A stretch of 64,000 nucleotides of DNA from assembly GCF_031430775.1 (NCBI RefSeq), contig NZ_JANPCD010000170.1, forward strand, positions 6,003-70,002. The letters are read 5' to 3'. The DNA comes from Sandarakinorhabdus sp. (GTDB taxonomy: Bacteria; Pseudomonadota; Alphaproteobacteria; Sphingomonadales; Sphingomonadaceae). The notes beneath the pieces were generated by a model, which ran no database searches, was not told the DNA's origin, and saw only the letters and a program-made list of their open reading frames with translations. This document shows, in pieces, positions 9,627 through 49,462 of this stretch. The first letter of the stretch is position 1, and every line of letters starts with the position of its first letter. Position numbers and translations under genes: made by a program.

Positions 9627-9633
9627 GCCGGGA

Positions 9634-36105: not shown

Positions 36106-36179
36106 GGCCCGATGGCGGAGTGGTGACGTAACGGACTGCAAATCCGTGCACCCGGGTTCGATTCCCGGTCGGGCCTCCA
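36106..36179 (+). tRNA. tRNA-Cys (anticodon GCA); prophage integration site
   Basis: GGCCCGATGGCGGAGTGGTGACGTAACGGACTGCAAATCCGTGCACCCGGGTTCGATTCCCGGTCGGGCCTCCA. Anticodon loop CTGCAAA, discriminator U, CCA. The integrase gene ends 10 nt downstream. Confidence 0.9.
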
Positions 36180-36188
36180 CCTACCTTG

Positions 36189-37271
36189 TTATAGTCGTTT
36201 TATATCAACGCCTTGACCTGATAAATTGGCGAACCTTTTAGGGGGGTTCGCCAATTTGTCGGCGGCGCTGTCGGCCAGCTGGCTGCGATTCGCGGCCTCC
36301 ACATATCGGGTCACTTCCTTGTCGCTGCTGTGGCCGGTCCAGCTTTTTATTTCTTGTTGTGATGCGCCGGCGTTGGCGAGGCGGACGGATGCCGCCTTGC
36401 GCAGGCCGTGGGCGCGGCCTGGTACGCCGGCGGCGATGCAGCGTTCGGCGAACCAGTTGCCGAAGCCGGCGTCGGTGAAGGGCTTGCCCTGTTCGGTGAC
36501 CAGATAGGTCATGTGGCCGCTGGTGAAGCCGTCCAGCGCCTCGTGCAGTTCGGCGATGATTGGCAGATCGAGCGCCTTGTCGGTCTTGCGCTGCTTGAAG
36601 GACAGGCGGCCGCCGCGCACGTTCTGCCGGCCCAGCCTGATCGCATCGCTGCGCCGCTGGGCGGTGTTGAGCATCAGCGCCAGCGCCAGCCATTCGCGCG
36701 TGCCGGGCGGCCAGCGGCGTTTGTATTGGGCAATCTCGGCCTCGGTCCAGGTGTGGAAGCCGCCCTTGACCTGATAGGGCCGCACCAGTTTCCACGGATT
36801 GTCGGCGACGATTTTCATGCGCATGCCTTCGTCCCAGATGCGGGACAGCAGCTTGCGCAGTTTGTTGCCGGCGTTGGGCCGGTCGGCGAACTTGGCCATG
36901 ATGGCGCTGGATTCCTCATAGCCAAAGCTGGCGACGGGAATGTGTTGGAACGGCTGCCGGAACCGTTCAATGACCAGGCGGAAGCTGTGGCGGGTGCGGT
37001 CGCTGGGCCGCTGCCAATCGGCGCTGCCATAATAGCGGGCAATCAGGTCGCCGATGGTGCCGGGCACGCTGCGCGCCTCGCCGGGAGTGATCGCGGGCGC
37101 GGCAAGGCCGGCCTTGCATGCGGCATATTCGGCCCACCATGCCGGGCTGAACGGTTCGGATTTGAAGTCATGGGCGGCGTGGCCGGTGCGGCGAAAGCGG
37201 GTGCGCAGTTTTCCGTGCCGGTCGCGGTAGGCGCTGACATTGGCAGGGAAGGGGCTGCGCGGGCGCGTCAC
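36189..37271 (-). CDS. int: tyrosine-type phage integrase
   Basis: 360 aa; catalytic-domain motifs LNTAQRRSD, AHGLRKAA, GHSSDKEVTRYV; GTG start overlaps the upstream stop (GTGA). Confidence 0.95.
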   Translation of the reverse strand: MTRPRSPFPANVSAYRDRHGKLRTRFRRTGHAAHDFKSEPFSPAWWAEYAACKAGLAAPAITPGEARSVPGTIGDLIARYYGSADWQRPSDRTRHSFRLVIERFRQPFQHIPVASFGYEESSAIMAKFADRPNAGNKLRKLLSRIWDEGMRMKIVADNPWKLVRPYQVKGGFHTWTEAEIAQYKRRWPPGTREWLALALMLNTAQRRSDAIRLGRQNVRGGRLSFKQRKTDKALDLPIIAELHEALDGFTSGHMTYLVTEQGKPFTDAGFGNWFAERCIAAGVPGRAHGLRKAASVRLANAGASQQEIKSWTGHSSDKEVTRYVEAANRSQLADSAADKLANPPKRFANLSGQGVDIKRL

Positions 37272-38259: not shown

Positions 38260-38579
38260 TGCGGCGTCTCCCCCTGTGAGAAACTGTCAACGCCGGCCAC
38301 CATGGCAAACTCAAGCAAATCCCGCAGGTTTTGCTGATGATCTTCGTTAAACATGGTCACGCCTTGAGATGATGCGTAGAGTTGCAGAGTGGCAAACATC
38401 ATCCCCACCAACAAAGCCCCTTGATCTTGTCGCGGCGCTTTGAGCCGGGCCGTGCAATGCGCCAAGGCTTTGCGCCGCTCCCGCTCGCACGCTGCATTAA
38501 AGAGGTCTGCGGCGTTGAACGCGCCCCAAGTTTCGGGCGGCCCTAGTCTGGCAAATGCCCTGTCTCTGGCGCCGCTCAT
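38256..38579 (-). CDS. hypothetical phage protein
   Basis: 107 aa; ATGA overlap with the upstream ORF. Confidence 0.5.
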   Translation of the reverse strand: MSGARDRAFARLGPPETWGAFNAADLFNAACERERRKALAHCTARLKAPRQDQGALLVGMMFATLQLYASSQGVTMFNEDHQQNLRDLLEFAMVAGVDSFSQGETPQ

Positions 38580-38770
38580 GCCGCCACCTGCATGGCGTTG
38601 AGGGTGGCGGTGAGCACCTGGAGGCGGGCGGCGTGGTGGGCGCGGTCGCGGGGGTCTGGCGCGTGGTGGGCCATGGCGCGGGCGCGGGCGATGATGTGGC
38701 GGGTGCTGTCGATGACGCCGGCGCGAATCTTGGGGTCGGCCAGCAGGACCGAGGCGGGGCGCGGGGTCAT
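38576..38770 (-). CDS. hypothetical phage protein
   Basis: 64 aa from MTPRPASVLLADPKIRAG; ATGA overlap with the upstream ORF. Confidence 0.4.
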   Translation of the reverse strand: MTPRPASVLLADPKIRAGVIDSTRHIIARARAMAHHAPDPRDRAHHAARLQVLTATLNAMQVAA

Positions 38771-38979
38771 CGGGCTACGCCGATGTGCTGCGCCCGGCGC
38801 CCGGCGCGGATCGATTCCAGTGCAGCGCGGTTGTCGACGCGCTGCTGCGCCTGATCGATGCGGTGGCGCCGGATGAGCATGATGCGCGTCGTGGCGCAGA
38901 ACAGCGGCCAGCCAATGACCAGACCGGCCAGTGTGCCGGTGAAGATGCCGGCCCCGAAGATATCCCAAAATGCCATCAT
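38767..38979 (-). CDS. small phage membrane protein (first gene of the leftward operon)
   Basis: 70 aa; N-terminal TM helix FWDIFGAGIFTGTLAGLVIGWPLF. Confidence 0.45.
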   Translation of the reverse strand: MMAFWDIFGAGIFTGTLAGLVIGWPLFCATTRIMLIRRHRIDQAQQRVDNRAALESIRAGRRAQHIGVAR

Positions 38980-39004
38980 GGCCTCCCGTTGTGGAAGCGC
39001 AAAA

Positions 39005-39052
39005 ATTGCAGATTGTGATTATTGGTGCAAGCGAATTTATTGCAGATTGTGA
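39005..39052 (-). promoter_or_regulatory. two perfect 14-bp direct repeats ATTGCAGATTGTGA (putative leftward operator/promoter region)
   Basis: Copies at 39005-39018 and 39039-39052 (34-bp period), in the low-GC gap between the repressor stop and the first leftward gene. Confidence 0.5.
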
Positions 39053-39061
39053 AGTCGGGTA

Positions 39062-39391
39062 TTATGCCGCCGGCTTGTGCCTGAAATTCAGCACGGTTTC
39101 GGCGAGGGCTATGATCTGGCGCTGCTCACCCTTGTCGGCGTTGTTCCAAATTTCCAGGATGCTTGCGTCAAGATCATATGGGTTGTGATCCAACAGCAGC
39201 CCCGGCGTTGTTTCCAAACAGGGAGCCAGTCTTCTCAGCCATTTAGCCGAGAGTTGCCGTTCGCCATTTTCGAGCATCGATACGACTGAAGCGGTCGTCC
39301 CGGCAGCGTGCGCCAGATCTTCCTGGGTCAGCTTTCGAAAATCGCGCCAATCGCGAAGATGGTTTGGGCCGCCATTTTTGCTGTTGTCCAT
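39062..39391 (-). CDS. XRE-family (cI-like) phage repressor without a peptidase domain
   Basis: 109 aa from MDNSKNGG; HTH LTQEDLAHAAGTTASVVSMLENGERQLS; divergent from the cro-like gene. Confidence 0.8.
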   Translation of the reverse strand: MDNSKNGGPNHLRDWRDFRKLTQEDLAHAAGTTASVVSMLENGERQLSAKWLRRLAPCLETTPGLLLDHNPYDLDASILEIWNNADKGEQRQIIALAETVLNFRHKPAA

Positions 39392-39485
39392 GGTCACAGC
39401 TTGCCACGAACCCGCGTTTTGCGCCTTTGCGCGACTGTGAAAAAACACGCTTGACGCAATTGTCACAATCTGTGAAGTCTGGGGC
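39392..39485. promoter_or_regulatory. divergent repressor/cro switch region
   Basis: 94-bp gap containing TTGACG (39451-39456), the palindrome ATTGTCACAAT, and TCACAATCTG (39463-39472), which is the inverted 10-nt core of the 39005/39039 repeats. Confidence 0.5.
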
Positions 39486-39725
39486 ATGCAAGAAGCCTCA
39501 ACCATAAAGCCGCCCAAGGTAATCGAGATTGCTGCTCGGCTTGGTATTTCGCAGCCTTATGCGTCGATGCTGGTCAACGGGCGGCGTCCATGGCCGGTGC
39601 CGCTTGCGGCGCGGGCATGGCAGCGCCTCGGCCTCAAGTACGGGCCGCTGGTCGATCTTGACGACGCCGCGTGCGCCGCGCTGGCACGCGCACACGGCGC
39701 ACCTGCCTCTGCTGTTCAAAACTAG
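39486..39725 (+). CDS. Cro-like HTH regulator
   Basis: 79 aa; VIEIAARLGISQPYASMLVNGRR HTH; divergent from the repressor. Confidence 0.65.
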   Translation: MQEASTIKPPKVIEIAARLGISQPYASMLVNGRRPWPVPLAARAWQRLGLKYGPLVDLDDAACAALARAHGAPASAVQN

Positions 39726-39737
39726 GAGATGCGTCGC

Positions 39738-40100
39738 ATGTTCCACTATCTGAACCCCATCCAGATACCCTGGGGGCCGACGCCGAAGGTAACGGCCGGC
39801 GCCACATGGTCAAAGGTCATCGCGTGGACGACGACGCCAGCCGTCATCGACGAGCATGGTGTCGAGCGCCGCGGCGAGATCTTCCGCGTTTTGTCGGGTA
39901 AGGAGGATTTGATAGCAGCGTTCGTCCGCCGTGGTAACCATGAGCGCGCCGAGGCCCTGAGGATGTCCGCCGGGGAGGCCGATTTCAGTCTTGACGGGCT
40001 GGATGACGATGTTGCGCATGGCGATGGTTCCTGTGGGCGAAATGTGCCCGGCGTGCAGCCTAATCCGGCCAGCGGCGACGGCCAAGGCCGGCCCGCATGA
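39738..40100 (+). CDS. hypothetical phage protein
   Basis: AGGAG lies 9 nt upstream of ATG 39738. High GC3. The stop overlaps the next start (ATGA). A competing antisense ORF was rejected. Confidence 0.45.
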   Translation: MFHYLNPIQIPWGPTPKVTAGATWSKVIAWTTTPAVIDEHGVERRGEIFRVLSGKEDLIAAFVRRGNHERAEALRMSAGEADFSLDGLDDDVAHGDGSCGRNVPGVQPNPASGDGQGRPA

Positions 40101-40384
40101 TCCAGCATCTGACGACTTTCAGCCTGGCGCCCTATGCCATCCGGCGCCCGGTGCCGGTGCCCAGCGTGCAGACCATCGTGGCTGCCGGCGCCGATGACGC
40201 GCCGATGGCGGCTGCCGATGGCGGCGTGTTGCGGGGCGGGGTGGGCGTGGATCATGCCGCACCATCGCGCCGCGCGGCCACCCTGTCATGCGGAAAGGCG
40301 GGCGGCGTTTCCGCCTGTGTGGTGCCGTCAGTTGTCAAGGGTTCCTTGACAACTGGTGCGCCGGCCGCAGGCGGTGCCCTGTGA
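40097..40384 (+). CDS. hypothetical phage protein
   Basis: 95 aa; high GC3; coupled at both ends. Confidence 0.4.
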   Translation: MIQHLTTFSLAPYAIRRPVPVPSVQTIVAAGADDAPMAAADGGVLRGGVGVDHAAPSRRAATLSCGKAGGVSACVVPSVVKGSLTTGAPAAGGAL

Positions 40385-40581
40385 TGGCCGACATCGTGCT
40401 GGGCGTCGGGCTGGTGGTGGCCTTGGTGCTTGATGGCAGTGTGTGCGCCATCGCCATCTGGTTGATGCACGACAGCTGGAACATCGGTGATTGGGCCGGC
40501 GTGCGGCGCAACGCGGCGGTGCTGCTGTGCCTGATTGCCGTCACCGGATGGACCGTGCCGCAAATTCTGGGGGTGATGTGA
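40384..40581 (+). CDS. small two-TM phage membrane protein
   Basis: 65 aa from MADIVLGVGLVVALVLDG; TGATG coupling. Confidence 0.5.
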   Translation: MADIVLGVGLVVALVLDGSVCAIAIWLMHDSWNIGDWAGVRRNAAVLLCLIAVTGWTVPQILGVM

Positions 40582-41030
40582 TGACCCCGCGTGACCAGGC
40601 CATGAAGCGCGCCACCCGCGCCCTGATCGAGGCAGTGGGCGGTATCGAGGCCGCCGCCGTGCTGTGCCGGGTCGGCAAGACCAAGCTGGCGGAATATGCC
40701 AGCGTCAACCACCCCGAGGCATGGATGCCCGCCGATGTGGTGCGCGACCTGATGGCGGTGACGCGGGGCTGTGCCGGGCGTCATGCCCTGCTGGCGATGC
40801 TGGCGGCAGACGCCGGCGCCGCGCTGGTGATGCTGCCCGACCATGCGCTGGCGCCCACCGACCTGATCGAGGTCATCCCGGCGTTGGCCAAGGAAAGCGC
40901 CGATGTGGTCAGCCGGCTTGTCGATGCTGCTGCCGGGCGCGGCAATGCGCGCGCATTGATCAAGGACATTGATGAGGCCGTCGCCGTGCTGGTGACGCTG
41001 CGCGCCGCTGTTGTGGAGGGTGAGGGATAA
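40581..41030 (+). CDS. hypothetical phage regulatory-like protein (CII-like by position and HTH-like N-terminus; tentative)
   Basis: 149 aa from MTPRDQAMKRATRALIEAVGGIEAAAVLCRVGKTKLAEYAS. Confidence 0.5.
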   Translation: MTPRDQAMKRATRALIEAVGGIEAAAVLCRVGKTKLAEYASVNHPEAWMPADVVRDLMAVTRGCAGRHALLAMLAADAGAALVMLPDHALAPTDLIEVIPALAKESADVVSRLVDAAAGRGNARALIKDIDEAVAVLVTLRAAVVEGEG

Positions 41031-41491
41031 TGAAAAGCGGGGGAATGATCATGGGCGGGCGCGGGGGTTTTTCGGGGCCGTGCGGTGACGTCGTGCCGGC
41101 CGCCGACACGCTGTCGGATGATGCGTTGATCGGCCGGCTGAATGCCTGGGTGGTCAAGGCGCAGCCGGGCGCGGTGATGGACCTGATCACGGTGCCGATG
41201 ACGCATCTGGTGGGGGCCGATCTGGGCCGGCGGGTGCAGGTGCTGGATGGTGCCGCGTTGATCATTGCGATGTGGCGGCGCGGGCGCCGGGACGGGGACT
41301 GGACTTGGCGCGTGACGCGCCTGCGCCGTCCGGTGCCGGGCAGCTGGCCCAAGGTCATTGCCTCGCCGCAACTGTCGGCGGGCGGGCGGAACGTGGATAC
41401 AGAGGCGATGATCGAGGCCGAACGGCGTGCCCAGCATGCCGGCCGTGAACGCAGGCGCCGCGACGCAGCGCGCGCCATGGTGACGGCATAA
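41030..41491 (+). CDS. hypothetical phage protein
   Basis: 153 aa; TAATG coupling at both ends. Confidence 0.5.
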   Translation: MKSGGMIMGGRGGFSGPCGDVVPAADTLSDDALIGRLNAWVVKAQPGAVMDLITVPMTHLVGADLGRRVQVLDGAALIIAMWRRGRRDGDWTWRVTRLRRPVPGSWPKVIASPQLSAGGRNVDTEAMIEAERRAQHAGRERRRRDAARAMVTA

Positions 41492-41775
41492 TGCGCGTGT
41501 CCTGGACAGATGCGGGATGGGTGGGCGCGCTGGCCGACAGGCTGGAAATGCTGTCGGCCGCGCCCAGTGCCGCGCGCCTTGCCGATCTGAAGGCGCATCT
41601 GGCGGAGCAGCCCGACAGCTATCTGGGCGATGATGCCTATCGGTTGATCGAGGCGGCGCAGACGTGGCTGGCCGATGCCGACCGGGCGGTGCCGCGTTTT
41701 CGGGGCGCGCAATTGATTGCCCGGGCGCGGGCCGGTGCCGTGCCGGCCGTGCCGGCGCCGTGGGCGGGCATGTGA
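41491..41775 (+). CDS. hypothetical phage protein
   Basis: 94 aa. Confidence 0.45.
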   Translation: MRVSWTDAGWVGALADRLEMLSAAPSAARLADLKAHLAEQPDSYLGDDAYRLIEAAQTWLADADRAVPRFRGAQLIARARAGAVPAVPAPWAGM

Positions 41776-41817
41776 ACCTAGCGGGCATGAACTGACATTT
41801 AGGGACGGGGAGTGGTT

Positions 41818-42822
41818 ATGAGCGGGGATTTTCTTTCCAAGACGGAATCACGCGTCTGCCTGGCGCGCGGTATCGATGACCGGGTGGCGGTGGTCCGTGA
41901 CCTGAACGCGCTGGTCGACCGCAACGGTCTGGCGGGCGCCGAGGCGGTGCTGGGCTTTGCCGGCGCCACCATCGGGCCAATCGTGGAGCGGCGCATCGGC
42001 ATCACCGAGCGCATTCTGGAAGCGCTGTACGGCCCGCGGGGCCGCAAGCTGCGCGCCGATCTGGGGGCGGCGAGCGACCCGATGAGCCGGATCATGGCGG
42101 CGGTGCGTCCGGTTGAGGCCCTGGCGGTAGTGCCTATGGTGCCTGTGGCTGCTGCGCCGTCTGTGCCCGATTCATGGGCGGCGGCCGGCACCAGCGCGGC
42201 CGAAATCGCGGCTATTCTGGCGGACGCGCGCAACCTGGGCATGACCTGGGCGCAGATCGCTGCGGCGTGCGGCGCGCATGACAAGACGCTGGGCAATCTG
42301 TTCGTCGGGCGGTTTAGGCCGGGCGTGGATCTGCTGCACAAGGTGCTGACCCTGCGCCCCGTGATTGCGCAGCACCGGGCCGTGCAGGCGCAGCGCAGTG
42401 ATGAGATTGAAGCGCCGCCGATAGAAGTGGCGGCGAATGCTGCCGCGCCCGCGCCAGTGGCAGAACAACAGGTTTCCGATGCGGTAACGGAAGATGCCGC
42501 ACCGGAACGGGGGGCGGCGGCTTGCCCGGCGGCTGATGCCGATGGGGTGCAGCCTGATGTATTGCCGCCCCCTGACGTGTTGCCGGTCATGTTCACGGCC
42601 CAGAGCGAGGCCAGCGGTGATGTGATCGCCGATGCTGCCGCTGCGCTGGCGGCGCGCATGACGTTTCTGGATGATGTGCAGGCCGAAGCGTGGCAGCGTG
42701 CGAGCCGGCTTCAGGGCGAGCTGGACGCAGCGCGGGCGGCGCTGGATGCTGCCGCCGATGAGCAGGTGCGTGTCGGTGCGGCGCTGAAAGCCTTGAACGG
42801 CCTGACGGCGTTGGCGGCATGA
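41818..42822 (+). CDS. hypothetical phage protein with C-terminal coiled coil
   Basis: ATG 41818 follows GGGGAG; 334 aa; the stop overlaps the methyltransferase start (ATGA). Confidence 0.55.
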   Translation: MSGDFLSKTESRVCLARGIDDRVAVVRDLNALVDRNGLAGAEAVLGFAGATIGPIVERRIGITERILEALYGPRGRKLRADLGAASDPMSRIMAAVRPVEALAVVPMVPVAAAPSVPDSWAAAGTSAAEIAAILADARNLGMTWAQIAAACGAHDKTLGNLFVGRFRPGVDLLHKVLTLRPVIAQHRAVQAQRSDEIEAPPIEVAANAAAPAPVAEQQVSDAVTEDAAPERGAAACPAADADGVQPDVLPPPDVLPVMFTAQSEASGDVIADAAAALAARMTFLDDVQAEAWQRASRLQGELDAARAALDAAADEQVRVGAALKALNGLTALAA

Positions 42823-43397
42823 GCGCGCCGGCTGCGATGATTGCGCGCGACCCGGCCAATACCGATGCGACCGATTTCACGCCGACACCGGAGCCGGTGG
42901 CGCGGGCGATGGTGGCGCTGGAGCCCTGGGGGCCGCGCGTGTGGGAACCGGCGTGCGGCGATGGCGCCTTGAGCGGGCAATTCCTGCGGGCCGGCATCGA
43001 TGTGGTCGAAACCGATTTGGCCCCGCGCGGCGTGGGCAGCCGGCTTGATTTCCTGCACGCGCGGCACCTGCTGGCGCCGGAGATCTGCACCAACCCGCCG
43101 TACCGCGACGGCCTGACCGATGCGTTCGCGGCCAAGGCGCTGGAACTGGGGGCGCGGCGGGTGATGCTGTTGATGCCGCTGGGCTGGATGCAGGCGGTGC
43201 AGGCGCCGCGCCCGCAGTTGCTGCGGCGTGGTTTGGCGCGGGTGTGGGTATCGAGCCGGCGCATCGCGTTCAAGCGCGGCGGGTGGGACGAAGGCCAGGG
43301 CGGCGGATCGATGCACAAGCATGCGCTGTATGTCTGGGAGGCCGGATACGCCGGCGACCCGGTGTTGAAATTCTTTGATTGGCGGGAGTGGGAATGA
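42819..43397 (+). CDS. small SAM-dependent N6-adenine-type DNA methyltransferase (orphan)
   Basis: Motif I WEPACGDG and motif IV CTNPPY in a 192-aa protein. Confidence 0.7.
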   Translation: MSAPAAMIARDPANTDATDFTPTPEPVARAMVALEPWGPRVWEPACGDGALSGQFLRAGIDVVETDLAPRGVGSRLDFLHARHLLAPEICTNPPYRDGLTDAFAAKALELGARRVMLLMPLGWMQAVQAPRPQLLRRGLARVWVSSRRIAFKRGGWDEGQGGGSMHKHALYVWEAGYAGDPVLKFFDWREWE

Positions 43398-45355
43398 TGG
43401 CGGGACGTTCACGAAAATTGCCTGTTGCGGTGGCTGATGTGGTCGATGCTGCGGTGACGGTGCCGGTGGAAACGGGCGATGTGCGGCTGCTGCCGCTGTC
43501 GGCGCTGCGGTTGGCGTCGGGCAATGTGCGCCGGGGCAAGCGGGCCGATCTGCTGCCGTTGGCGGAATCCATCGCCGCGCTGGGCGTGCTGCAAAATCTG
43601 GGGGTGGTTGTGCATGCCGGCGGTGACGCCGAGGTGCATTACGGCAGCCGGCGCCTGGCGGCGTTGCAGCAGCTGGCCAAGGCGGGGCGGATCGCCGGTG
43701 ATTATTCGGTGCCGTGCCGCGTTTTGCGCGAAGCGCCGGCGCGCGAATCGGCGCTGGCGGAGAATTTCCAGCGGGTGGCGATGGGCGCGGCCGATGAGGT
43801 CAGGGCGTTTGCCGCGCTGGTGGCCGGCGGGGCGACGATCGAGGTTGTGGCGGCGCGGTTCGGCCAGACGGTGCGGTTCGTGCGGCAGCGGCTGCGCCTG
43901 GCCGGGCTGCATGCCGATGTGCTGGCGGCGCTGGAGGCCGGCACGATCACGCTGGATGTGGCGCAGGCCTTTGCATCGGTCGATGACCCGGCGCGGCAGG
44001 CCGCCGTGTTGAAGAACGCGGGCGGGTATGTCCTGATGCGCGCAGCGCTGGTTTCCGAGCAGATGCGGCATTCCAGCTGCACGGCAACCGACATTGCGGC
44101 GGTGTATGCCGGGCGCGAAGCCTATGTGGCGCGCGGCGGGCGGATATCGGCGGACCTGTTCAGCGAGGCCGAGGATGAATTGTGGCTGGACGGCGATATG
44201 GTCGACGCCATCGTGCAGGAGAAACTGCGCGCCGAGGCGCCGGAATGGCAGGCCCGGCATGGGTTTGGCCGGGTGCTGGTGGCCGGCGATGAGGAGCCCG
44301 AGGATCTGGCCAGCATCATCGGCGAATGGGTGCAGCCCGGCGCCGCGATGCAGATGCCGACGGAGCAGCGCGCCGGCCTGATCGTGACGATCGGATTGCG
44401 CCGCGCGGGCGTGGAGGTGACCGGCGCGAACCGCATGGTCGATGCGGTGCCGGTATCGGATGCTTTTTCGCCGGCGCGGGCCGATGAGGGCGAACCGGAT
44501 GATGCCGAACTGGCGCAGCCGGAAGCCGAGGCAGCACCGGCGGCCTTCAGCGGCGAGATTACCCAGTCGGCCAAGGCCGCGATGGCGATGCGCGGGCGTG
44601 ATCTGCTGGCGTCGCGGCTGTTGCGCGCTGGTGACCCGGCCGCGTTCGATGTGTGTTTTCGCCTGGTGGCGTTTACCATGGCCGATGACATGGTGCGCCG
44701 GTTCGGCAAGAAGTTCCCCGGCGCCGCCCATACCCGGCTGTGTGCGGTGGAATTTGCCACGCAGGTGCAAGACCCGTTGGCGCCCGGCAAGGATGGCCAG
44801 CCCTGGGCCGGTGATGCGCTTGATACGGTGTTGCAGAACCATTTCACCGAACGTGCCGACGATGGTCTGAATTGGGCATGGGCGATGTCTGCCGATGCCG
44901 ATGACAGGTTTGCGGCGTTCTGTGCGCTGGATGCCGATGTGGCGTGCCAATGGTTCATGCGGGCGACGGCGGCGAGCCTGCGGGCGTTGCAGGGTGCCAC
45001 GCTGCGCAACCAGGCGGCGCTGGTGGCCGGGCAATTGGACGGTGAGACGGGGGTGCCGTTGTGGCGGCCGACTGCGGAGAATTATTTCCTGCGATCGAGC
45101 GGCAAGAACGCGTGTTTGGAGATGATCGCCGAATGTTTCGGTGAGGGCGCCGATGTGTCGGGCTGGGCCAAGTGGAAGAAAGCCGATCTGGCGGCGGCGT
45201 GCGAGGCGCTGGCGCGCGGCGATGCCGCCAAGCTGGGCGCGGACATTACCGCCTATGGTAAGTGGAAAGGGCCAGACACTGCCATCGAACCTGTTGTCGC
45301 CGCCGCGGGCGCGGTGTGGATGCCCGCCATCATGCGCATCGGCGGTGATGCGTGA
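43394..45355 (+). CDS. ParB/Srx-fold N-terminal domain protein (653 aa)
   Basis: LPLSALRLASGNVRR, VHYGSRRLAAL and ALAENFQR motifs of the ParB N-terminal domain; long uncharacterised C-terminal region. Confidence 0.8.
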   Translation: MMAGRSRKLPVAVADVVDAAVTVPVETGDVRLLPLSALRLASGNVRRGKRADLLPLAESIAALGVLQNLGVVVHAGGDAEVHYGSRRLAALQQLAKAGRIAGDYSVPCRVLREAPARESALAENFQRVAMGAADEVRAFAALVAGGATIEVVAARFGQTVRFVRQRLRLAGLHADVLAALEAGTITLDVAQAFASVDDPARQAAVLKNAGGYVLMRAALVSEQMRHSSCTATDIAAVYAGREAYVARGGRISADLFSEAEDELWLDGDMVDAIVQEKLRAEAPEWQARHGFGRVLVAGDEEPEDLASIIGEWVQPGAAMQMPTEQRAGLIVTIGLRRAGVEVTGANRMVDAVPVSDAFSPARADEGEPDDAELAQPEAEAAPAAFSGEITQSAKAAMAMRGRDLLASRLLRAGDPAAFDVCFRLVAFTMADDMVRRFGKKFPGAAHTRLCAVEFATQVQDPLAPGKDGQPWAGDALDTVLQNHFTERADDGLNWAWAMSADADDRFAAFCALDADVACQWFMRATAASLRALQGATLRNQAALVAGQLDGETGVPLWRPTAENYFLRSSGKNACLEMIAECFGEGADVSGWAKWKKADLAAACEALARGDAAKLGADITAYGKWKGPDTAIEPVVAAAGAVWMPAIMRIGGDA

Positions 45356-45681
45356 TGCGCAGCGTGACGGATACGGATTTTGAAAGCGCGATTGCGCGGC
45401 CTGGCCCGGTGCTGGTGGTGTTCGAGGCGGTGTGGTGCCGGCCCTGCGTGCGGATGCGCGACGAAGTGGCCGAGGCCGCCGGGCGGCTGGCATGGCCGGT
45501 GCTGACCGCCGAGCTTGACGCCGCGCAGAATGCCGCGCTGGCGTCCAAGGTGCGGGCGGTGCCGTCGGCGGCGCTGTACCGCGACGGCGTGCTGTTGGCG
45601 ACCAAGCCCGGCGCCTGGCCGGCCTCGGCGTTGCTGGGCTGGATTCAGGGCGCGCTGGCTGCGCCCGGCAGCGCTGGCTGA
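45355..45681 (+). CDS. phage-encoded thioredoxin (WCRPC active site)
   Basis: 108 aa; VLVVFEAVWCRPCVRM; cis-Pro segment RAVPSAALY; ATG shares its A with the ParB-like stop (TGATG). Confidence 0.85.
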   Translation: MRSVTDTDFESAIARPGPVLVVFEAVWCRPCVRMRDEVAEAAGRLAWPVLTAELDAAQNAALASKVRAVPSAALYRDGVLLATKPGAWPASALLGWIQGALAAPGSAG

Positions 45682-45769
45682 ACCATGGCGGGACGGGGAC
45701 ATGATGACGCCGCAGACGCGGCGAACGACGGGTCGCCTGTGCTGGCTGCCGCGCTGCGGGGGTGTGTTC

Positions 45770-46981
45770 ATGGATGATGATCTGTTTGAGCGTGCGCGCG
45801 CCATGCTGATCCAGGACGTGGTCGCGCAGCGCGGCGGGCGCCTGATCGGCGGCGGTGATCGCCGGCGGTCGCATTGCCCGCTGTGTGGCGGCGGCGAGGC
45901 ATCGAAGTCGACGCCGCTGTCGGTCGATGTGCGGCGCGGCCTGTTCAAATGCTTTTCGTGCGGCGCGGGTGGCGATGCCGTGCGGTTCGAACAGATTGCC
46001 GGCGCGCATGCCACCGCCGCCGATGCCGCGCGCGCGTTGACTGGTGACCGGGAGGGTGAACTGTCCGTAGTGTCCAGATACATGGCGAAGCGCCACCGGG
46101 CTTCGTCTGCGTCTGATGCCCTTGCGATCGTGGACAGTGCGGCGGTAGCGAAGTGGATGCGCAGCGCGGCGGTGGCTGCCGATGACAGCAGCCCGGTGGC
46201 GATGTGGCTGGCGGCGCGCGGGCTGAAGCCGGATGGCGTACCGGGTGCGCTGGCGCGTCTTGGCTGGCTGCGCGCGGCGCCAGTGTCGGCGTGGCGGGTG
46301 CGATTCCCGGCCGATGCGGTGCGGCCGCCCGATAGTGTCGGCGTGTGCCCGGCGATGGTGGCCGGCCTGGTTGATGCAACCGGCGCGGCGGTCGATGCCG
46401 TGCATGTCACCTATCTGGCAGACGGGGGCCGGTCCAAGGCCGATCTGCGCCGCCGCGACGGGTCGGCGATGCCGTCGCGCAAGATGTACGGCAGTGTTCA
46501 CCGCGCCTGTTTTGCCCTGACAGACCTGCACGGCGCCGGGCCGTTGATTGTCGGCGAAGGCATTGAAACGGTGTGGGCCTTGGCGCAGGAACTGGCGCTG
46601 GCTGGGCCGGTGCGGGCGGTGGCCGTGTTGAGCCTGGACAATTTGCAGGGCGGTATCCTGACCGATGACGCGCGTGCGTTTCGCCTGGATGCGCCGCTGG
46701 CCGACCCGGACCGGGCGCCATTCGTGATGGCCATGCCGGGCGCCGTCATCATCGCTGTGGATGCCGATATGAGCCCGGTGAAAATGACGGTGCGGGAGCG
46801 GCGCGGGGGCAAGCCGGTGCAGCGATTGTTGACGGCGATGGACCGCGCGCAGCTGTGCGGCACATTGGCAGCGCAGGCGTGGCGCCGGGCCGGTGCCAGC
46901 GACGTGCGGGTTATGCGCCCGCGCCTTGGCATGGATTTCAATGATGTGGTGGCGCAGCGGCGCATGGGCGCGCCGTCATGA
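45770..46981 (+). CDS. CHC2 zinc-finger + Toprim domain protein (primase-associated)
   Basis: HCPLCGG...FKCFSCGAGGD zinc finger; Toprim IVGEGIETV ... IIAVDAD; ATG 45701 is an alternative start. Confidence 0.8.
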   Translation: MDDDLFERARAMLIQDVVAQRGGRLIGGGDRRRSHCPLCGGGEASKSTPLSVDVRRGLFKCFSCGAGGDAVRFEQIAGAHATAADAARALTGDREGELSVVSRYMAKRHRASSASDALAIVDSAAVAKWMRSAAVAADDSSPVAMWLAARGLKPDGVPGALARLGWLRAAPVSAWRVRFPADAVRPPDSVGVCPAMVAGLVDATGAAVDAVHVTYLADGGRSKADLRRRDGSAMPSRKMYGSVHRACFALTDLHGAGPLIVGEGIETVWALAQELALAGPVRAVAVLSLDNLQGGILTDDARAFRLDAPLADPDRAPFVMAMPGAVIIAVDADMSPVKMTVRERRGGKPVQRLLTAMDRAQLCGTLAAQAWRRAGASDVRVMRPRLGMDFNDVVAQRRMGAPS

Positions 46982-48534
46982 CCGGCGAAGCGTTCCCGCT
47001 GGGCAGCGACATGGCGGTCGTCGACAATGGCCGTCTGGCGTGGCTCGAGGCCAATGACATCGGCAATGCCGAGCGGCTGAAGGCGCGATTCGGCAACCGT
47101 CTGGCCTGGCTGCCGCATGTGCAGTCCTGGGCTTTTTATGAAGGCCGATACTGGTCTGTTGAGGATGGCCCCCGGCAGGCGATGCTGGCGGCGCAAGTGA
47201 CGGTCAGGGCCATTGCCGACGAAATCGACGCCATGAAGGCGCTGGCCGAGCGGTCGCAGGATTGGCCGGAGTGGATGACTGCGGCGCTGTTGCGGGCGAG
47301 AATCAGCACGCTGGCGCAGTGGCGGATCAAGGCCGGCAACAGCAACCGCCTGTCAGGGCTGTTGATGCAGGCCACGGCCATGATGACGGTGGCGGATGAG
47401 GCCTTTGATGCCGACCCGCTGGCCATTAACTGCCGCAACGGCACGCTGCGCCTATGGCGTGAAGATGGCGTGCCGGTGATGCAACTGTTCGACCATGATC
47501 CTGCCGACAGGCTGACCAAGATGGCGCGGGTGGACTGGAACCCCAAGGCCGTCGCTCCAAGCTGGGAGCGCCATTTGGCAACGTGTCTGCCCAGCGGCGA
47601 TGTGCGGGCGTTTTTTCAGCAGGCCATGGGATATTGCGCCACCGGCCTGACCGATGAACAATGCGTGTTCCTGCTCCAGGGCAAGGGCGGCGACGGCAAG
47701 TCCACATCGATGCTGGTGATCATGCATGTGCTGGGCAGCTATGCGCTGACGGCCGGCGTCAATACCTTTTTGACATCGGGCAAGGTCAAGGATGGCGGCG
47801 GGCCGAGTTCCGATGTGGCGCGCCTGTCTGGCGATCTGCGCCTGGTATCGGCCGGCGAGCCCAAGAAGGATGCGATGATCGACGACAGCCGGGTGAAGCA
47901 GTTCACTGGCAGCGGCGAAATGACGGCGCGGCATCTGCACAAAGCCGAGATCAACTTCAAGCCGCGCGGCAAGTTGGTATTCGAATGCAATGGTCGGCCA
48001 AAGATATCGGGTGATGACGACGGCATCTGGCGGCGCATCGTCTTGATCCTTTGGCCGCACCAGTTCGACAAGAGCGCCCGCGTGCTCGGGTTCGAGAAAC
48101 AGCTGATGGAAGAAGGCCCTGGCGTGCTGGCGTGGCTGGTGCGCGGCATCATGGCCTGGATGAGCGCCGGCAAGCTTGTTCTGCCTGCCGAGGTTGAAAG
48201 CGCTGTCGAGGAGTACAGGCGATCGAACAGTCACTTTGGCAATTGGCTGACGGATCGGACGATCAAGGACGAGCAGGCGCTGACACCTTCAAAGGCACTG
48301 TATGCCGACTACAAGGACTGGTGCGAGCGCAACGACATCGATGAGCGCACCATGCTGACCACCACGAAGTTCGGCCTCGAACTGGGTGACAGGCAGTTCC
48401 TGACCAAGAAGAACAGCAAGGGCAACATCGAGCGGCGCGGTGTCAGGCTGCGTGTCGCGGCCGATGTCCTCGGCGATGACGACGCCATGGCGGCCTATGA
48501 CGACATGGCGGCGGCGTATGACGATGCGTTCTGA
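46978..48534 (+). CDS. P4/D5-family phage primase-helicase (SF3 helicase)
   Basis: 518 aa; Walker A LLQGKGGDGKST; P4-family C-terminal layout. Confidence 0.85.
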   Translation: MTGEAFPLGSDMAVVDNGRLAWLEANDIGNAERLKARFGNRLAWLPHVQSWAFYEGRYWSVEDGPRQAMLAAQVTVRAIADEIDAMKALAERSQDWPEWMTAALLRARISTLAQWRIKAGNSNRLSGLLMQATAMMTVADEAFDADPLAINCRNGTLRLWREDGVPVMQLFDHDPADRLTKMARVDWNPKAVAPSWERHLATCLPSGDVRAFFQQAMGYCATGLTDEQCVFLLQGKGGDGKSTSMLVIMHVLGSYALTAGVNTFLTSGKVKDGGGPSSDVARLSGDLRLVSAGEPKKDAMIDDSRVKQFTGSGEMTARHLHKAEINFKPRGKLVFECNGRPKISGDDDGIWRRIVLILWPHQFDKSARVLGFEKQLMEEGPGVLAWLVRGIMAWMSAGKLVLPAEVESAVEEYRRSNSHFGNWLTDRTIKDEQALTPSKALYADYKDWCERNDIDERTMLTTTKFGLELGDRQFLTKKNSKGNIERRGVRLRVAADVLGDDDAMAAYDDMAAAYDDAF

Positions 48535-48540
48535 TGCGGC

Positions 48541-48777
48541 ACGGAGAGTTGCGGATGGTCGACTGTCCGTTGGCTTTATTTCAGGGCGCGGGCGCGAATG
48601 GCGGCGGGCGGACGTGCCGCTGCAACTGTCCGTAACGGAGAGTTGTCGGGCAAGACGGGCGGTGCAAGTTCAATGGCTTGGGGGCGGCGACGGATAGACG
48701 GACAGTTGCCGCAGCAGTTTCGACATTTCTGCAAGCGGGCCATGCATAACAACAGACTTTCTCTCTAAACTCTCCGT
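48541..48777. repeat. cluster of six 11-mers ACGGA(C/G)AGTTG in both orientations (putative phage origin iterons)
   Basis: + strand copies at 48541-48551, 48635-48645 and 48698-48708. - strand copies at 48560-48570 (10/11), 48623-48633 and 48767-48777 (10/11). 48623-48645 forms a near-perfect palindrome. Confidence 0.7.
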
Positions 48778-48794
48778 AGAAAAGGATATCAGTT

Positions 48795-49403
48795 ATGAAA
48801 GAAATAAAAGCAGGACGGCCATGGGCCGGTGGTTCGGTGGCGGTCGATGCGCTGGTGGTGTGGGCGCTGCGCGATCAGCGGGCCGGCGATCCGCTTGAAG
48901 GGCTGTTCGGCATCGAGGCCGAGGCCATGGGCATGACGCCGCGCCGGTCCAGCACAGATGGCTGTGCCGCCGTGGAGCGCATCGCGGCCATGGGCTGCCA
49001 GGTGGACGGCGGCGGGTATAGCAGCGACGGTGCCGACCCGATCGCGGATCTGGTGGCCATGATGGCGGTGCAGGTCGGCGGTGAGGCGGCGCGGATGATC
49101 ATGGAGCATGGGCGGGCCGGGACGGAACCCGCAGGCTGGAACGTGCCGGCGCATTGGCTGGTCCCGGAACGGTGGGAAGCTGACGGTGATCTGGCGATGA
49201 CGACGTATGTGAACGGCAAACAGGGGCAGCACTGCCCGCTGATGCGCGTGAACTCGCCCGAGGGTGTCGAGGCGGCGCGCGAGCGGTATCTAATGTGGTG
49301 GGACGGGCTGGAGCTGCTGGGCTTTCATCTGTCGACGCGGGCGCTGGGCTTTGTGGTGCAGCAGCCCGGCGTGCCGCGAACGCCGTGGGAAGTGGGGGCT
49401 TGA
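48795..49403 (+). CDS. hypothetical phage protein (possible late regulator by position)
   Basis: 202 aa; the low-GC 5' end follows the iteron cluster; a strong terminator follows the gene. Confidence 0.55.
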   Translation: MKEIKAGRPWAGGSVAVDALVVWALRDQRAGDPLEGLFGIEAEAMGMTPRRSSTDGCAAVERIAAMGCQVDGGGYSSDGADPIADLVAMMAVQVGGEAARMIMEHGRAGTEPAGWNVPAHWLVPERWEADGDLAMTTYVNGKQGQHCPLMRVNSPEGVEAARERYLMWWDGLELLGFHLSTRALGFVVQQPGVPRTPWEVGA

Positions 49404-49462
49404 CGGCGAGCGATTGCATCGGGTAACCAGTCAGCATCTGGAAATTGTGAGTGCAGAAGAAC

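What the first reader, a model, noticed from the sequence alone, without database searches (positions are those of the whole stretch)
42819..45681. Translationally coupled NPPY methyltransferase, ParB/Srx-fold protein and WCRPC thioredoxin
Three consecutive early genes overlap stop to start: ATGA at 43394-43397 and TGATG at 45353-45357. The upstream 334-aa gene is coupled as well. The first gene is a minimal N6-adenine-type methyltransferase (EPACGDG, NPPY). The second is a 653-aa protein whose N-terminus is the ParB/sulfiredoxin fold, with about 450 aa of unknown function. The third is a thioredoxin with a non-canonical WCRPC site. Sulfiredoxin-fold enzymes are functionally linked to thiol reductants, and ParB-like proteins act in DNA-modification systems (for example DndB and DpdB). 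A phage-encoded ParB/Srx plus Trx pair next to a methyltransferase may therefore be a DNA-modification, anti-restriction or redox-dependent replication accessory module that has not been characterised. The alternative is a plain partition/processivity set.
Basis: inference. Interest (0 to 1): 0.6.

Follow-up and report, generated by a model that had tools for sequence, protein, structure and literature searches.

The report
Prophage HerB-like ParB, methylase, thioredoxin
Three tightly packed early genes of an integrated phage encode a small DNA adenine methylase, a relative of the plasmid protein HerB (a ParB-type DNA clamp that reprograms host gene expression) and an unusual thioredoxin; they look like accessory cargo beside the phage's replication genes, not a sulfiredoxin-style redox enzyme system.

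Summary
The overlaps are not special to these three genes, because 6 of the 8 junctions from the cII-like gene to the helicase overlap by 1 or 4 nt.

- **The 653-aa "ParB/Srx + 450 aa unknown" protein** is a full-length homologue of F-plasmid HerB/YfjB (profile-profile probability 100, E 8.8e-43, HerB residues 36-637 of 652). HerB is a CTP-binding ParB-type HTH clamp that reprograms host transcription after plasmid entry (2026 preprint). The protein has the arginine box GSRRLAAL and no sulfiredoxin-type cysteine. No ParA gene was found.
- **The 192-aa methyltransferase** is an M.TaqI-like catalytic core from a widespread family of small phage methylases.
- **The thioredoxin** is divergent (WCRPC, and it lacks the usual Asp/Trp before the site).

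The trio does not co-occur among the relatives I could fetch. Of 173 HerB-like loci, 2 had the small methyltransferase and 0 had a thioredoxin. A related phage (L280) runs directly from methyltransferase to primase, so herB-like+trx sits in a variable cargo slot.

Matching contig lengths hint that the closest HerB-like relatives also sit beside a thioredoxin or this methyltransferase.

Verdict: a new member of a known kind, of moderate interest.

The parts
36106..36179 (+). tRNA-Cys, the probable attachment site at the left prophage end
   Evidence: ARAGORN. The integrase gene starts 10 nt away.
36189..37271 (-). Tyrosine integrase
   Evidence: phrog_1 integrase, E 3.4e-26.
39062..39517 (-). 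cI-like HTH repressor
   Evidence: HTH_3 E 3.1e-08 and HTH_31 E 4e-08. Transcribed divergently from the early operon.
39486..39725 (+). cro-like small HTH protein, the first gene of the rightward early operon
   Evidence: Weak HTH_3 match, E 0.0028, plus its position.
40491..41030 (+). cII-like activator
   Evidence: phrog_101, E 1.7e-10. Homologues in related phage loci L280, L289 and L107.
41818..42822 (+). 334-aa protein of unknown function, coupled to the methyltransferase by ATGA
   Evidence: No hit in Pfam, PHROGs, NCBIfam or PADLOC. Only a weak HTH-like structural lead for residues 124-207, TM <= 0.23 by query.
42819..43397 (+). Small orphan gamma-class (M.TaqI-like) N6-adenine-type DNA methyltransferase, catalytic core only
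   Evidence: phrog_799, E 1e-35. Motifs EPACGDG and NPPY. Model pLDDT 86.7. Best fold match M.TaqI 1g38_A, E 5.5e-08, TM 0.59-0.62. Found in 68 phage records. Homologues up to 73% identity.
43394..45355 (+). HerB-family ParB-like protein: D1 ParB-CTPase fold (about 30-130), D2 HTH (about 135-210), D3 (about 210-336, then a disordered 337-386), D4 helical C-terminal domain (about 390-650)
   Evidence: hhalign of family alignment A1 against F-plasmid HerB: probability 100, E 8.8e-43, 584 columns, HerB residues 36-637 of 652. BLASTP 31% identity over 308 aa, E 1e-21. Foldseek and VIA match ParB, Noc, KorB and Spo0J. Box II GSRRLAAL at residue 84, box III ENFQR at 123, D4 motif WRPTAENYF at 557.
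45355..45681 (+). Divergent single-domain thioredoxin, WCRPC
   Evidence: PF00085, E 5.3e-13, 49.3 bits against a cut-off of 23.5. Below the TrxA/thioredoxin equivalog cut-offs. Best solved relative 3vfi_A, E 9.8e-13. Nearest single-domain relatives 48-50% identical, with a variable WCxPC.
45701..46981 (+). Primase: CHC2 zinc ribbon + DUF7146 + Toprim (start inferred)
   Evidence: PF01807 and PF23639. phrog_510, E 1.7e-27. Same domain set as the primases of L280 and L278 and of the ICE-type locus L001.
46978..48534 (+). D5_N / P4-family replicative helicase, coupled to the primase by ATGA
   Evidence: PF08706, E 1.9e-19. TIGR01613, 198.6 bits against a cut-off of 108.7. phrog_1156, E 6.5e-102.
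48551..48570 (+). Terminator-like hairpin, the probable end of the early operon
   Evidence: Consensus scan, 8-pair stem followed by a T-rich tail. The scan as a whole was not enriched over shuffles (12 found against a mean of 8.0).

Best explanation
The three genes are part of one long, translationally coupled early (cro-side) operon of a temperate tailed phage integrated at tRNA-Cys.

The conserved backbone of this operon is cII-like gene, small methyltransferase, zinc-ribbon/DUF7146/Toprim primase, then D5/P4 helicase. Between methyltransferase and primase lies a slot whose content varies among related phages. Here the slot holds a two-gene cargo: a HerB-family ParB-like protein and a divergent thioredoxin.

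Proposed working:
1. After infection or induction the operon is transcribed as a unit.
2. The M.TaqI-like methyltransferase methylates adenines in replicating phage DNA and so blunts host restriction. Its class is shown; its activity and target are inferred.
3. The HerB-like protein dimerises through its C-terminal D4 domain, binds CTP with its ParB fold, and loads on DNA through its HTH as a clamp. By analogy with F-plasmid HerB it remodels host transcription and physiology during the establishment and replication window. It does not partition DNA. Homology and motifs are shown; function is inferred.
4. The thioredoxin supplies or tunes thiol-reducing power at the same time. Its target is unknown.

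This is not a sulfiredoxin-type enzyme with its reductant.
For: **HerB homology**
- Full-length profile-profile match to F-plasmid HerB: probability 100, E 8.8e-43, 584 columns covering D1-D4.
- Direct BLASTP E 1e-21, with the shared W(R/Q)PTxxN(Y/F)F motif in D4.
- The N-terminal half folds like CTP-bound ParB, Noc and KorB with an HTH.
- Boxes II and III are present.
- HerB properties are taken from PMC13370423 (abstract and sections 6, 10, 11, 34 read).

**Distribution of the family**
- It is abundant on conjugative elements. At least 5000 plasmid records were hit, 3512 of them conjugative.
- In 173 loci anchored on HerB-like genes, a DUF7146-Toprim primase lies within the flanks in 81 and a methyltransferase-helicase fusion in 111. 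All are on the same strand as the HerB-like gene.

**Variable slot**
- Related phage L280 has cII-like gene, methyltransferase, then the primase 3 nt later, then the D5 helicase, with nothing in between.
- L278 and L289 carry other genes there: RusA/DUF1376/SF2 helicase, and SSB.

**Methyltransferase**
- phrog_799.
- Best fold match is M.TaqI.
- Found in 68 phage records.
- Orphan methyltransferases protecting phages and plasmids: passages of PMC11541004.

**No partition role**
- No ParA among the 27 ORFs scanned.
- No ParA-binding motif.
- TIGR00180 scores 36.6 bits against a cut-off of 58.45.
Against: - All function is by homology. No expression, binding or methylation data exist for this element, and the genome is a metagenome-assembled one.
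- HerB was studied in a conjugative plasmid that enters as single-stranded DNA. Its role in a phage may differ, and the preprint itself calls its three cyanophage homologues unexplained.
- D3 and the linker are poorly modelled (pLDDT < 50 at residues 337-386 and 439-469), and identity to HerB in D3-D4 is low.
- The thioredoxin has no assigned role in this explanation. It lacks the Asp and Trp that typical thioredoxins carry before the active site, so even its reductase activity is uncertain.
- The 'cargo slot' rests on three related phage loci whose proteins are only 33-42% identical to the window's.
- The genome and metagenome locus sets overlap in part and are dominated by Sphingomonadales, so the neighbour counts are not independent.
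Confidence: 0.62

Rival explanations
1. HerB-like protein and thioredoxin form a dedicated functional pair. The thioredoxin reduces, or is a structural partner of, the HerB-like clamp (for instance through cysteines in D4). Alternatively the two together reset host redox metabolism. The cassette moves as a unit.
For: - The two genes overlap stop to start (TGATG) and lie together in the variable slot.
- The thioredoxin relative P0127 (48% identity) and the HerB-like relative P0006 (40% identity over 95% of the query) both come from a JGI contig of exactly 4692 nt.
- C574 and C603 are invariant in the 7-sequence close clade. C574 is absent from the wider family.
- The HerB preprint reports effects on host redox balance.
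Against: - No thioredoxin was found within the flanks of any of the 173 HerB-like loci, and no ParB-like gene in any of the 80 thioredoxin-anchored viral loci.
- Co-location on the 4692-nt contig is inferred from equal length only. I could not read the DNA.
- C603 is also common in family members that have no thioredoxin nearby.
- F-plasmid HerB works without a plasmid thioredoxin.
Confidence: 0.15
2. The HerB-like protein acts on the phage's own DNA as a replication or transcription accessory. It could be a KorB-like CTP-dependent regulator, or a loader or organiser for the adjacent primase-helicase.
For: - The gene sits inside the replication module, between the methyltransferase and the primase.
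- HerB-like genes on conjugative elements are very often on the same strand as a DUF7146-Toprim primase (81 of 173 loci) and a helicase fusion (111 of 173).
- The fold matches KorB as well as it matches ParB (8qa9_B, TM by target 0.65; 1r71_A, Z 10.8).
Against: - Related phage L280 has the same primase and helicase without any such protein, so it is not needed for that replication system.
- For F-plasmid HerB, ChIP-seq found host chromosomal sites and no parS-like motif.
- No convincing repeated site was seen in 38000-49700.
Confidence: 0.15
3. One reading: a ParB/sulfiredoxin-fold enzyme working with its thioredoxin reductant and a methyltransferase, as a DNA-modification (Dnd/Dpd-like) or redox-dependent module.
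For: - The ParB N-terminal fold is shared with sulfiredoxin (6ky4: Foldseek E 1.8e-02; Z 9.6 over 87 residues).
- A thioredoxin is translationally coupled downstream.
- ParB-methyltransferase fusions are enriched in prophages (PMC12704722, passages).
Against: - ParB, Noc and KorB match far better than sulfiredoxin and include the HTH (E 1.6e-08; Z 13.4).
- Box II has arginines and no cysteine.
- There was no PADLOC hit to any defence or modification ParB-like model.
- The rest of the protein is HerB D3-D4.
- The methyltransferase family stands alone in 79 of 80 viral loci.
- The word 'thioredoxin' does not occur in the main text of the ParB-fold survey.
Confidence: 0.04
4. A plain plasmid-type partition protein, with thioredoxin as a polymerase processivity factor.
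For: Sources annotate family members as 'ParB/RepB/Spo0J partition protein'. T7 DNA polymerase uses host thioredoxin (recalled; solved complexes such as 1skr appear).
Against: - No ParA among the 27 ORFs scanned.
- No ParA-binding motif.
- The score is below the TIGR00180 cut-off.
- The prophage is integrated and has an integrase.
- No DNA polymerase gene lies in the early region, 39.5-48.6 kb.
Confidence: 0.03

Closest known systems
HerB (YfjB) of the F plasmid leading region (PMC13370423, bioRxiv July 2026)
   Same: - Nearly the same length (653 against 652 aa).
- The same four-part architecture: ParB-CTPase D1, HTH D2, D3, helical D4.
- Full-length profile match.
- Box II G-x-R-R-L-A-A-L and box III EN-x-x-R are present.
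- The D4 motif W(R/Q)PTxxN(Y/F)F is shared.
- Both are encoded on a mobile element among genes expressed first after entry, with an orphan methyltransferase upstream on the same strand (F).
   Different: - It lies in a phage early operon, not a plasmid leading region. No ssb, psiB or ardA neighbours were identified among the operon genes scanned.
- Only 31% identity in D1-D2, and much less beyond.
- It is coupled to a thioredoxin.
- The preprint found 426 plasmid homologues and only 3 phage ones, all in cyanophages.
- CTP binding, dimerisation and host reprogramming are untested here.
HerB-like genes of alphaproteobacterial ICEs and plasmids, with Toprim-DUF7146 primase and methyltransferase/Strawberry-notch-type helicase (loci L001, L013, L015 and others)
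   Same: The same protein family over its full length (30-33% identity over 89-95% of the query). The same functional set lies nearby on one strand: methyltransferase, primase with zinc ribbon/DUF7146/Toprim, and helicase.
   Different: There the methyltransferase is fused to an SF2 helicase (AAA_34/Helicase_C_4), not a 192-aa stand-alone enzyme. The helicase here is an SF3 D5/P4 type. None of those loci has a thioredoxin.
Small stand-alone phage methyltransferases (phrog_799; for example Rhizobium phage 16-3 p096) and the catalytic domain of M.TaqI
   Same: The motif order is X ('DFTPTP'), then I ('EPACGDG'), then IV ('NPPY'). The fold is closest to M.TaqI and type I HsdM. Identity to annotated phage methyltransferases is 30-39% over about 90% of the length.
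   Different: It is about half the size of M.TaqI, with no target-recognition domain. No Pfam model matches. The target sequence is unknown. It is unrelated to the PF01555 methylase of the F leading region.
Thioredoxin (TrxA family; the closest solved chain is 3vfi_A)
   Same: Thioredoxin fold by Pfam. CxxC with the proline kept. The conserved cis-proline position (P70) and G78 are invariant in the alignment.
   Different: - WCRPC in place of WCGPC.
- Val and Glu stand where typical thioredoxins have Asp and Trp ('VDFWA').
- It scores far below the equivalog cut-offs (39 against 96.8 bits).
- Only 33% identical to the genome's best other thioredoxin-like match, which has a TGA inside it.
ParB-CTPase/methyltransferase fusion proteins of prophages (PMC12704722)
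   Same: A ParB fold and a DNA methyltransferase are associated in a prophage. The suggested role is anti-defence or phage-host interaction (passages).
   Different: Here they are two separate genes. The ParB-like protein has its own HTH and D3-D4. The methyltransferase family normally occurs without any ParB: only 1 of 80 loci had one, L279.

Membership tests
HerB family (F-plasmid YfjB) | D1: ParB-CTPase fold with nucleotide-binding boxes II and III | tested here: met
   - Foldseek best match is CTP-analogue-bound ParB 7bnr_A, E 1.6e-08.
- Spo0J 1vz0_A, Z 13.4.
- GSRRLAAL at residue 84 and ENFQR at 123, aligned to HerB GGRRLAAL and ENGHR.
HerB family (F-plasmid YfjB) | D2: ParB-type HTH DNA-binding domain | tested here: met
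   PF17762 HTH_ParB, 27.6 bits against a cut-off of 22.6. ParB DNA-binding domain 6s6h_B, Z 11.6, and KorB DNA-binding domain 1r71_A, Z 10.8.
HerB family (F-plasmid YfjB) | D3 and D4 homologous to HerB over at least 80% of each domain (the preprint's own criterion) | tested here: met
   The hhalign match of family alignment A1 to HerB spans HerB residues 36-637: probability 100, E 8.8e-43, 584 columns. That is a family profile; the single-sequence BLASTP reaches D4 only as a weak HSP, E 0.059. By that span D1 (residues 14-136) is covered from 36, about 82%.
HerB family (F-plasmid YfjB) | D4-mediated homodimer forming a V-shaped clamp; CTP binding; nucleoid foci; host transcriptional reprogramming | not testable with these tools
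   These need protein biochemistry, imaging, ChIP-seq and RNA-seq. The D4 fold has no solved match in my searches (best Z 4.8), in line with the preprint calling it novel.
HerB family (F-plasmid YfjB) | Encoded in the leading region of a conjugative or mobilisable plasmid (typical context, not a structural criterion) | tested here: not met
   Here it lies in the early operon of an integrated tailed prophage with integrase, terminase, portal and capsid genes.
Canonical partition ParB (ParABS) | Adjacent ParA, an N-terminal ParA-binding motif, and a score above TIGR00180 | tested here: not met
   - No ParA among the 27 prophage ORFs scanned.
- The motif [LFI]G[KR]G[LFI] is absent (motif taken from a passage of PMC12704722).
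- TIGR00180 scores 36.6 bits against a cut-off of 58.45.
Sulfiredoxin | Single-domain ParB fold with a catalytic cysteine in the phosphate-binding motif (motif recalled, not from a call) | tested here: not met
   The box II position reads G-S-R-R, and the nearest cysteine is C108. The protein has an HTH and two further domains. Sulfiredoxin matches are much weaker than ParB, Noc or KorB.
DndB / DpdB-type ParB-like proteins of DNA-modification systems | Match to the family models; neighbouring modification genes | tested here: not met
   No PADLOC model hit at E <= 0.001 for the ParB-like protein. The neighbours are a methyltransferase, a thioredoxin and replication genes only.
Thioredoxin (PF00085) | Pfam score above the gathering cut-off; CxxC active site; conserved cis-proline | tested here: met
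   49.3 bits against a cut-off of 23.5. WCRPC at residue 27. P70 is invariant in the alignment.
TrxA / thioredoxin equivalogs (TIGR01068, NF006898) | Score above NCBIfam's curated cut-off | tested here: not met
   39 bits against 96.8, and 33 bits against 138. It lacks the Asp and Trp of 'VDFWA'.
Gamma-class N6-adenine DNA methyltransferase | AdoMet motif I before catalytic motif IV (N/D)PP(Y/F), on a class-I methyltransferase fold closest to DNA adenine methyltransferases | tested here: met
   EPACGDG at residue 43, NPPY at 92. Both are invariant or nearly so in 24 homologues. M.TaqI is the top fold match.
Gamma-class N6-adenine DNA methyltransferase | Target-recognition domain and demonstrated m6A formation on DNA | not testable with these tools
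   At 192 aa it covers only the catalytic domain of the 393-aa M.TaqI chain. rRNA and tRNA methyltransferases also appear lower in the list, so the substrate is inferred.

The most novel reading that the evidence does not exclude
The HerB-like clamp and the divergent thioredoxin are a mobile two-gene cassette in which the thioredoxin is the clamp's dedicated redox partner. It would keep or switch clade-specific cysteines in the D4 dimerisation domain (C574, C603), or act jointly with the clamp on host redox metabolism. A temperate phage would then use a redox-gated, CTP-dependent host-reprogramming device that is otherwise known only from conjugative plasmids.
Probability: 0.12. Interest if true: 0.65.

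Novelty: new member of a known kind. Interest (0 to 1): 0.4.

Why it matters
HerB was described only in 2026, as a plasmid leading-region protein that reprograms the recipient cell. Its authors found just three phage homologues, all in cyanophages, and left them unexplained.

A full-length homologue in the early operon of a lambda-like (cI/cro/cII-type) prophage, sitting in an exchangeable slot of the replication module, suggests that host reprogramming by ParB-type clamps is shared between plasmid and phage establishment. It also offers a second, genetically simple setting in which to test this.

The finding removes a tempting but wrong sulfiredoxin-thioredoxin reading. It shows that the methyltransferase belongs with the replication backbone rather than with the ParB-like gene. 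The thioredoxin remains the one unexplained part.

Tried and rejected
- **Complex prediction.** HerB-like protein (alignment A1) with thioredoxin (A3): no answer, score 0.00 against a mark of 0.32. This is no evidence either way.
- **Sequencing runs.** Two DNA holders from one study, which may be the source of this DNA, and no RNA holder listed.
- **DNA-level relatives of 41800-48600.** None in the phage collection. In 60 other genomes of the genus there were only short matches; the longest was 250 nt at 68% identity in the cII region.
- **Single-protein locus scans.** These found nothing for the ParB-like protein in genome contigs or for the thioredoxin in viral contigs. Alignments were then used.
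- **Close clade of HerB-like proteins (P0002-P0006).** It was not recovered as DNA in any collection. The scan of viral contigs with alignment A4 returned only L013.
- **Metagenome scan with thioredoxin alignment A3.** It failed because the alignment had no conserved stretch to search with.
- **Order-level genome search with the methyltransferase.** 12 of 401 genomes matched at E <= 1e-15, the window's own genome included. The other matches are 30-39% identical.
- **Solved fold for D4.** None was found (Foldseek; VIA wide, best Z 4.8 over residues 416-531). The whole 653-residue model was searched, not the domain alone, so this is inconclusive.
- **F-plasmid leading-region methylase against the small methyltransferase family.** Not related (hhalign probability 3.6).
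- **N-terminus of the ICE methyltransferase-helicase against the window's methyltransferase.** BLASTP found nothing significant.
- **Repeats and inverted repeats in 38000-49700.** Only GC-rich low-identity pairs; no parS-like or iteron set.
- **Promoter scan.** Not above shuffles.
- **Protein-atlas search for the 334-aa protein.** Only sub-threshold HTH leads.
- **Earlier notes of this scan.** Nothing on this stretch.

Full report
**1. What is in the sequence**

The window is a 64-kb stretch of a 70-kb contig from a 2.8-Mb metagenome-assembled genome. From tRNA-Cys at 36106-36179 rightwards it carries a prophage, with these genes:
- integrase (36189-37271, minus strand);
- divergent cI-like and cro-like HTH genes;
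- a cII-like gene (40491-41030);
- late genes for small and large terminase, portal, protease-capsid fusion, head decoration and tail terminator.

The finding lies in the rightward early operon. All reported coordinates, motifs and overlaps are correct:
- methyltransferase 42819-43397 (EPACGDG, NPPY);
- ParB-like gene 43394-45355 (653 aa from the ATG inside ATGA);
- thioredoxin 45355-45681 (WCRPC; TGATG junction);
- the 334-aa gene upstream, which ends in ATGA at the methyltransferase start.

The same packing runs through the operon. The cII/g153 and g153/g94 junctions are TAATG, and the primase/helicase junction is ATGA. So 6 of the 8 junctions between the cII-like gene and the helicase overlap. 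The coupling is real but does not mark the three genes as a unit.

**2. The ParB-like protein is a HerB homologue**

*Family and fold.*
- Pfam sees only HTH_ParB. PHROGs gives phrog_7783 (unknown function, E 5.7e-43) and several ParB-like families.
- A word-indexed search found 144 proteins at E <= 0.001 among 8000 scored candidates. Most are 640-700 aa. Five are about 40% identical over 94-100% of the query, and many from Sphingomonadales are 30-33% identical over 89-95%.
- A 26-sequence alignment is conserved end to end, including C-terminal motifs such as WRPTxxNYFxR and KKxxL.
- The AlphaFold model is of moderate quality (pLDDT 69.4).
- Its first ~220 residues match CTP-bound ParB, Noc, KorB and Spo0J, HTH included (Foldseek E 1.6e-08; VIA Z 13.4).
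- Sulfiredoxin matches only as the bare fold (E 1.8e-02; Z 9.6 over 87 residues).
- The C-terminal half found no solved relative.

*Link to HerB.*
- A literature search turned up a July 2026 preprint on F-plasmid YfjB, renamed HerB (PMC13370423; I read the abstract and sections 6, 10, 11 and 34).
- HerB is 652 aa, with a CTP-binding ParB domain D1, an HTH domain D2, and two new domains D3 and D4.
- D4 forms a domain-swapped dimer, giving a V-shaped clamp.
- HerB is made immediately after conjugative entry, forms nucleoid foci, binds many chromosomal sites without a parS-like motif, reprograms host transcription and lowers the cost of plasmid acquisition.
- I fetched the F-plasmid gene (L370:9539-11497, between ssb/DUF905 and psiB).
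- BLASTP gives 31% identity over 308 residues (E 1e-21), plus a weak HSP over the D4 motif.
- The family profile aligns to HerB residues 36-637 with probability 100 and E 8.8e-43 over 584 columns.
- That meets the preprint's own criterion of at least 80% coverage of each domain, at profile level.
- Box II (GSRRLAAL) and box III (ENFQR) are present.

*What this excludes.*
- There is no cysteine at the sulfiredoxin position.
- There is no ParA-binding motif, and no ParA among the 27 prophage ORFs scanned.
- No PADLOC model hit.
- The partition, sulfiredoxin and Dnd/Dpd readings are therefore not supported.

**3. The methyltransferase**
- It has no Pfam or NCBIfam hit but matches phrog_799 (E 1e-35).
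- It has relatives in 68 phage records, 62 of them covering at least 80% of the query. Hosts include Rhizobium, Listeria, Staphylococcus, Streptococcus and Campylobacter.
- Metagenomic homologues reach 73% identity.
- In 24 homologues the motifs DFxPTP, WEPACGDGAI and TNPP(F/Y) are invariant or nearly so.
- The model is confident (pLDDT 86.7), and its best structural matches are M.TaqI and type I HsdM subunits.
- It is a catalytic core with no target-recognition domain. The target and even the substrate class remain inferred.

**4. The thioredoxin**
- It is a real thioredoxin-fold protein (PF00085, 49.3 bits) but far below the TrxA equivalog cut-offs.
- An exhaustive HMMER search gave 3218 matches at E <= 0.001, of which 57 reach E <= 1e-10. 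The closest single-domain proteins are 48-50% identical.
- In these near relatives the residue between Cys and Pro varies (K, P, A, Q, W, R). The Asp and Trp of the usual 'VDFWA' are replaced.
- The genome's best other thioredoxin-like match is 33% identical and has a TGA inside it, so this is not a recent host copy.
- The early region has no DNA polymerase or ribonucleotide reductase gene, so the two textbook phage uses of thioredoxin have no partner here.

**5. Do the three genes travel together?**

I built HMMs from the three alignments and searched six-frame ORFs of every fetched locus.

| Anchor of the loci | Loci | Small methyltransferase | ParB-like | Thioredoxin |
|---|---|---|---|---|
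| HerB-like gene (13 viral, 80 genomic, 80 metagenomic; flanks up to 5-6 kb) | 173 | 2 | (anchor) | 0 |
| Thioredoxin (viral) | 80 | 0 | 0 | (anchor) |
| Methyltransferase (viral) | 80 | (anchor) | 1 | 0 |

- The two methyltransferase hits among the HerB-like loci (L010, L013) lie 3-4 kb away on the other strand.
- The single ParB-like hit among the methyltransferase loci is L279, where a 277-aa ParB-like protein lies directly upstream.
- What does recur beside HerB-like genes is a zinc-ribbon/DUF7146/Toprim primase (81 of 173 loci) and a methyltransferase fused to a Strawberry-notch-type helicase (111 of 173). Both are always on the same strand.
- These sets overlap in part and are dominated by Sphingomonadales, so the counts are not independent.
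- The functional classes methyltransferase, primase and helicase thus accompany HerB-like genes on conjugative elements as they do here, but through unrelated proteins.

**6. The backbone and the slot**

Three methyltransferase-anchored viral loci also carry homologues of the window's cII, primase or helicase.
- **L280:** the methyltransferase (5944-6549) is followed 3 nt later by a primase with the same zinc ribbon, DUF7146 and Toprim (6553-7755). A D5 helicase follows (8185-9774). Nothing lies in between.
- **L278:** RusA, DUF1376 and an SF2 helicase lie between the methyltransferase and the primase.
- **L289:** an unknown gene and SSB precede a PrimPol-D5 fusion.

So the methyltransferase belongs with the replication backbone, and herB-like+trx occupies a variable cargo position.

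The closest relatives could not be read as DNA, but two coincidences stand out:
- HerB-like P0006 and thioredoxin P0127 both come from a JGI contig of 4692 nt.
- HerB-like P0005 and methyltransferase P0279 (66% identity) are each on two Logan contigs, the longest 15455 nt.

This suggests that the local order is kept in the nearest clade. It is inference from lengths only.

**7. How it most likely works**

*Shown:* operon structure, family memberships, motifs and folds.

*Inferred:*
- After infection or induction the operon is read through to a terminator-like hairpin at 48551-48570.
- The methyltransferase protects phage DNA, as orphan methyltransferases do in phages and plasmid leading regions (passages of PMC11541004).
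- The HerB-like dimer loads on DNA in a CTP-dependent way and alters host transcription to favour establishment or replication.
- The thioredoxin acts in the same time window on an unknown target.

I put 0.62 on this.

**8. Novelty and score**

The family is known (2026 preprint), and so are small phage methyltransferases and phage thioredoxins. The survey of the ParB-CTPase fold (PMC12704722, passages) already notes ParB-methyltransferase fusions in prophages; it does not mention thioredoxin in its main text.

New here:
- a full-length HerB homologue in a cI/cro/cII-type prophage early operon;
- its placement in an exchangeable slot of a P4-type replication module;
- its coupling to a divergent thioredoxin.

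I searched papers for YfjB / ParB-like / leading region, for phage-encoded thioredoxin / prophage / ParB, and for thioredoxin / temperate phage / early operon / primase. Judging by titles and abstract openings, none of the papers listed addresses such a pairing. I rate it a new member of a known kind, interest 0.4.

Noticed in passing
window 45515-45700: The longest primase ORF starts at TTG 45515 and would overlap the thioredoxin gene by 167 nt. An in-frame ATG at 45701, behind GGGGA and 19 nt after the thioredoxin stop, is the likelier start, giving a 426-aa primase.
   Followed up: partly
window 49623-51542 and 48795-49403: A 639-aa ORF with no PHROG hit and a 202-aa ORF (phrog_9306, unknown function) lie between the early operon and the small terminase gene. 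Their function is unknown.
   Followed up: no
window 39009-39041 and 39440-39472: An AT-rich 33-nt inverted repeat (76% complementary) flanks the cI-like gene in an otherwise 65-70% GC region. These may be operator or promoter sites of the immunity switch.
   Followed up: no
L009:4523-10927: A viral contig carries a reverse transcriptase (RVT_1) directly upstream of a 649-aa ParB-like gene related to HerB, with a C-5 cytosine methyltransferase downstream.
   Followed up: no
L006:4224-9002: A viral contig has a DUF6551 protein, a 590-aa ParB-like protein, an MT-A70 methyltransferase and a DUF4326 protein in a row. This is another ParB-like/methyltransferase neighbourhood, built from different families.
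   Followed up: no
L067:668-6020 and L014:113-6163: The betaproteobacterial ParB-like genes most similar in their N-terminal part (43-44% identity) sit beside a CBASS-like pair (patatin + DncV-like nucleotidyltransferase; L067), or beside a resolvase and an AAA_22 ATPase (transposon-like; L014).
   Followed up: partly
L003:5392-5634 and L005:5254-5514: GapR-like DNA-binding proteins lie just upstream of shorter (about 500-520 aa) ParB-like genes on viral contigs, followed by DnaA-C-like or HerA-like genes. The ParB-like proteins match the window's protein only over its first ~300 residues.
   Followed up: no
window 41818-42822: The 334-aa, alanine-rich protein coupled to the methyltransferase has no family in four libraries. 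It has only a weak HTH-like structural lead at residues 124-207, and no homologue in any fetched locus.
   Followed up: partly
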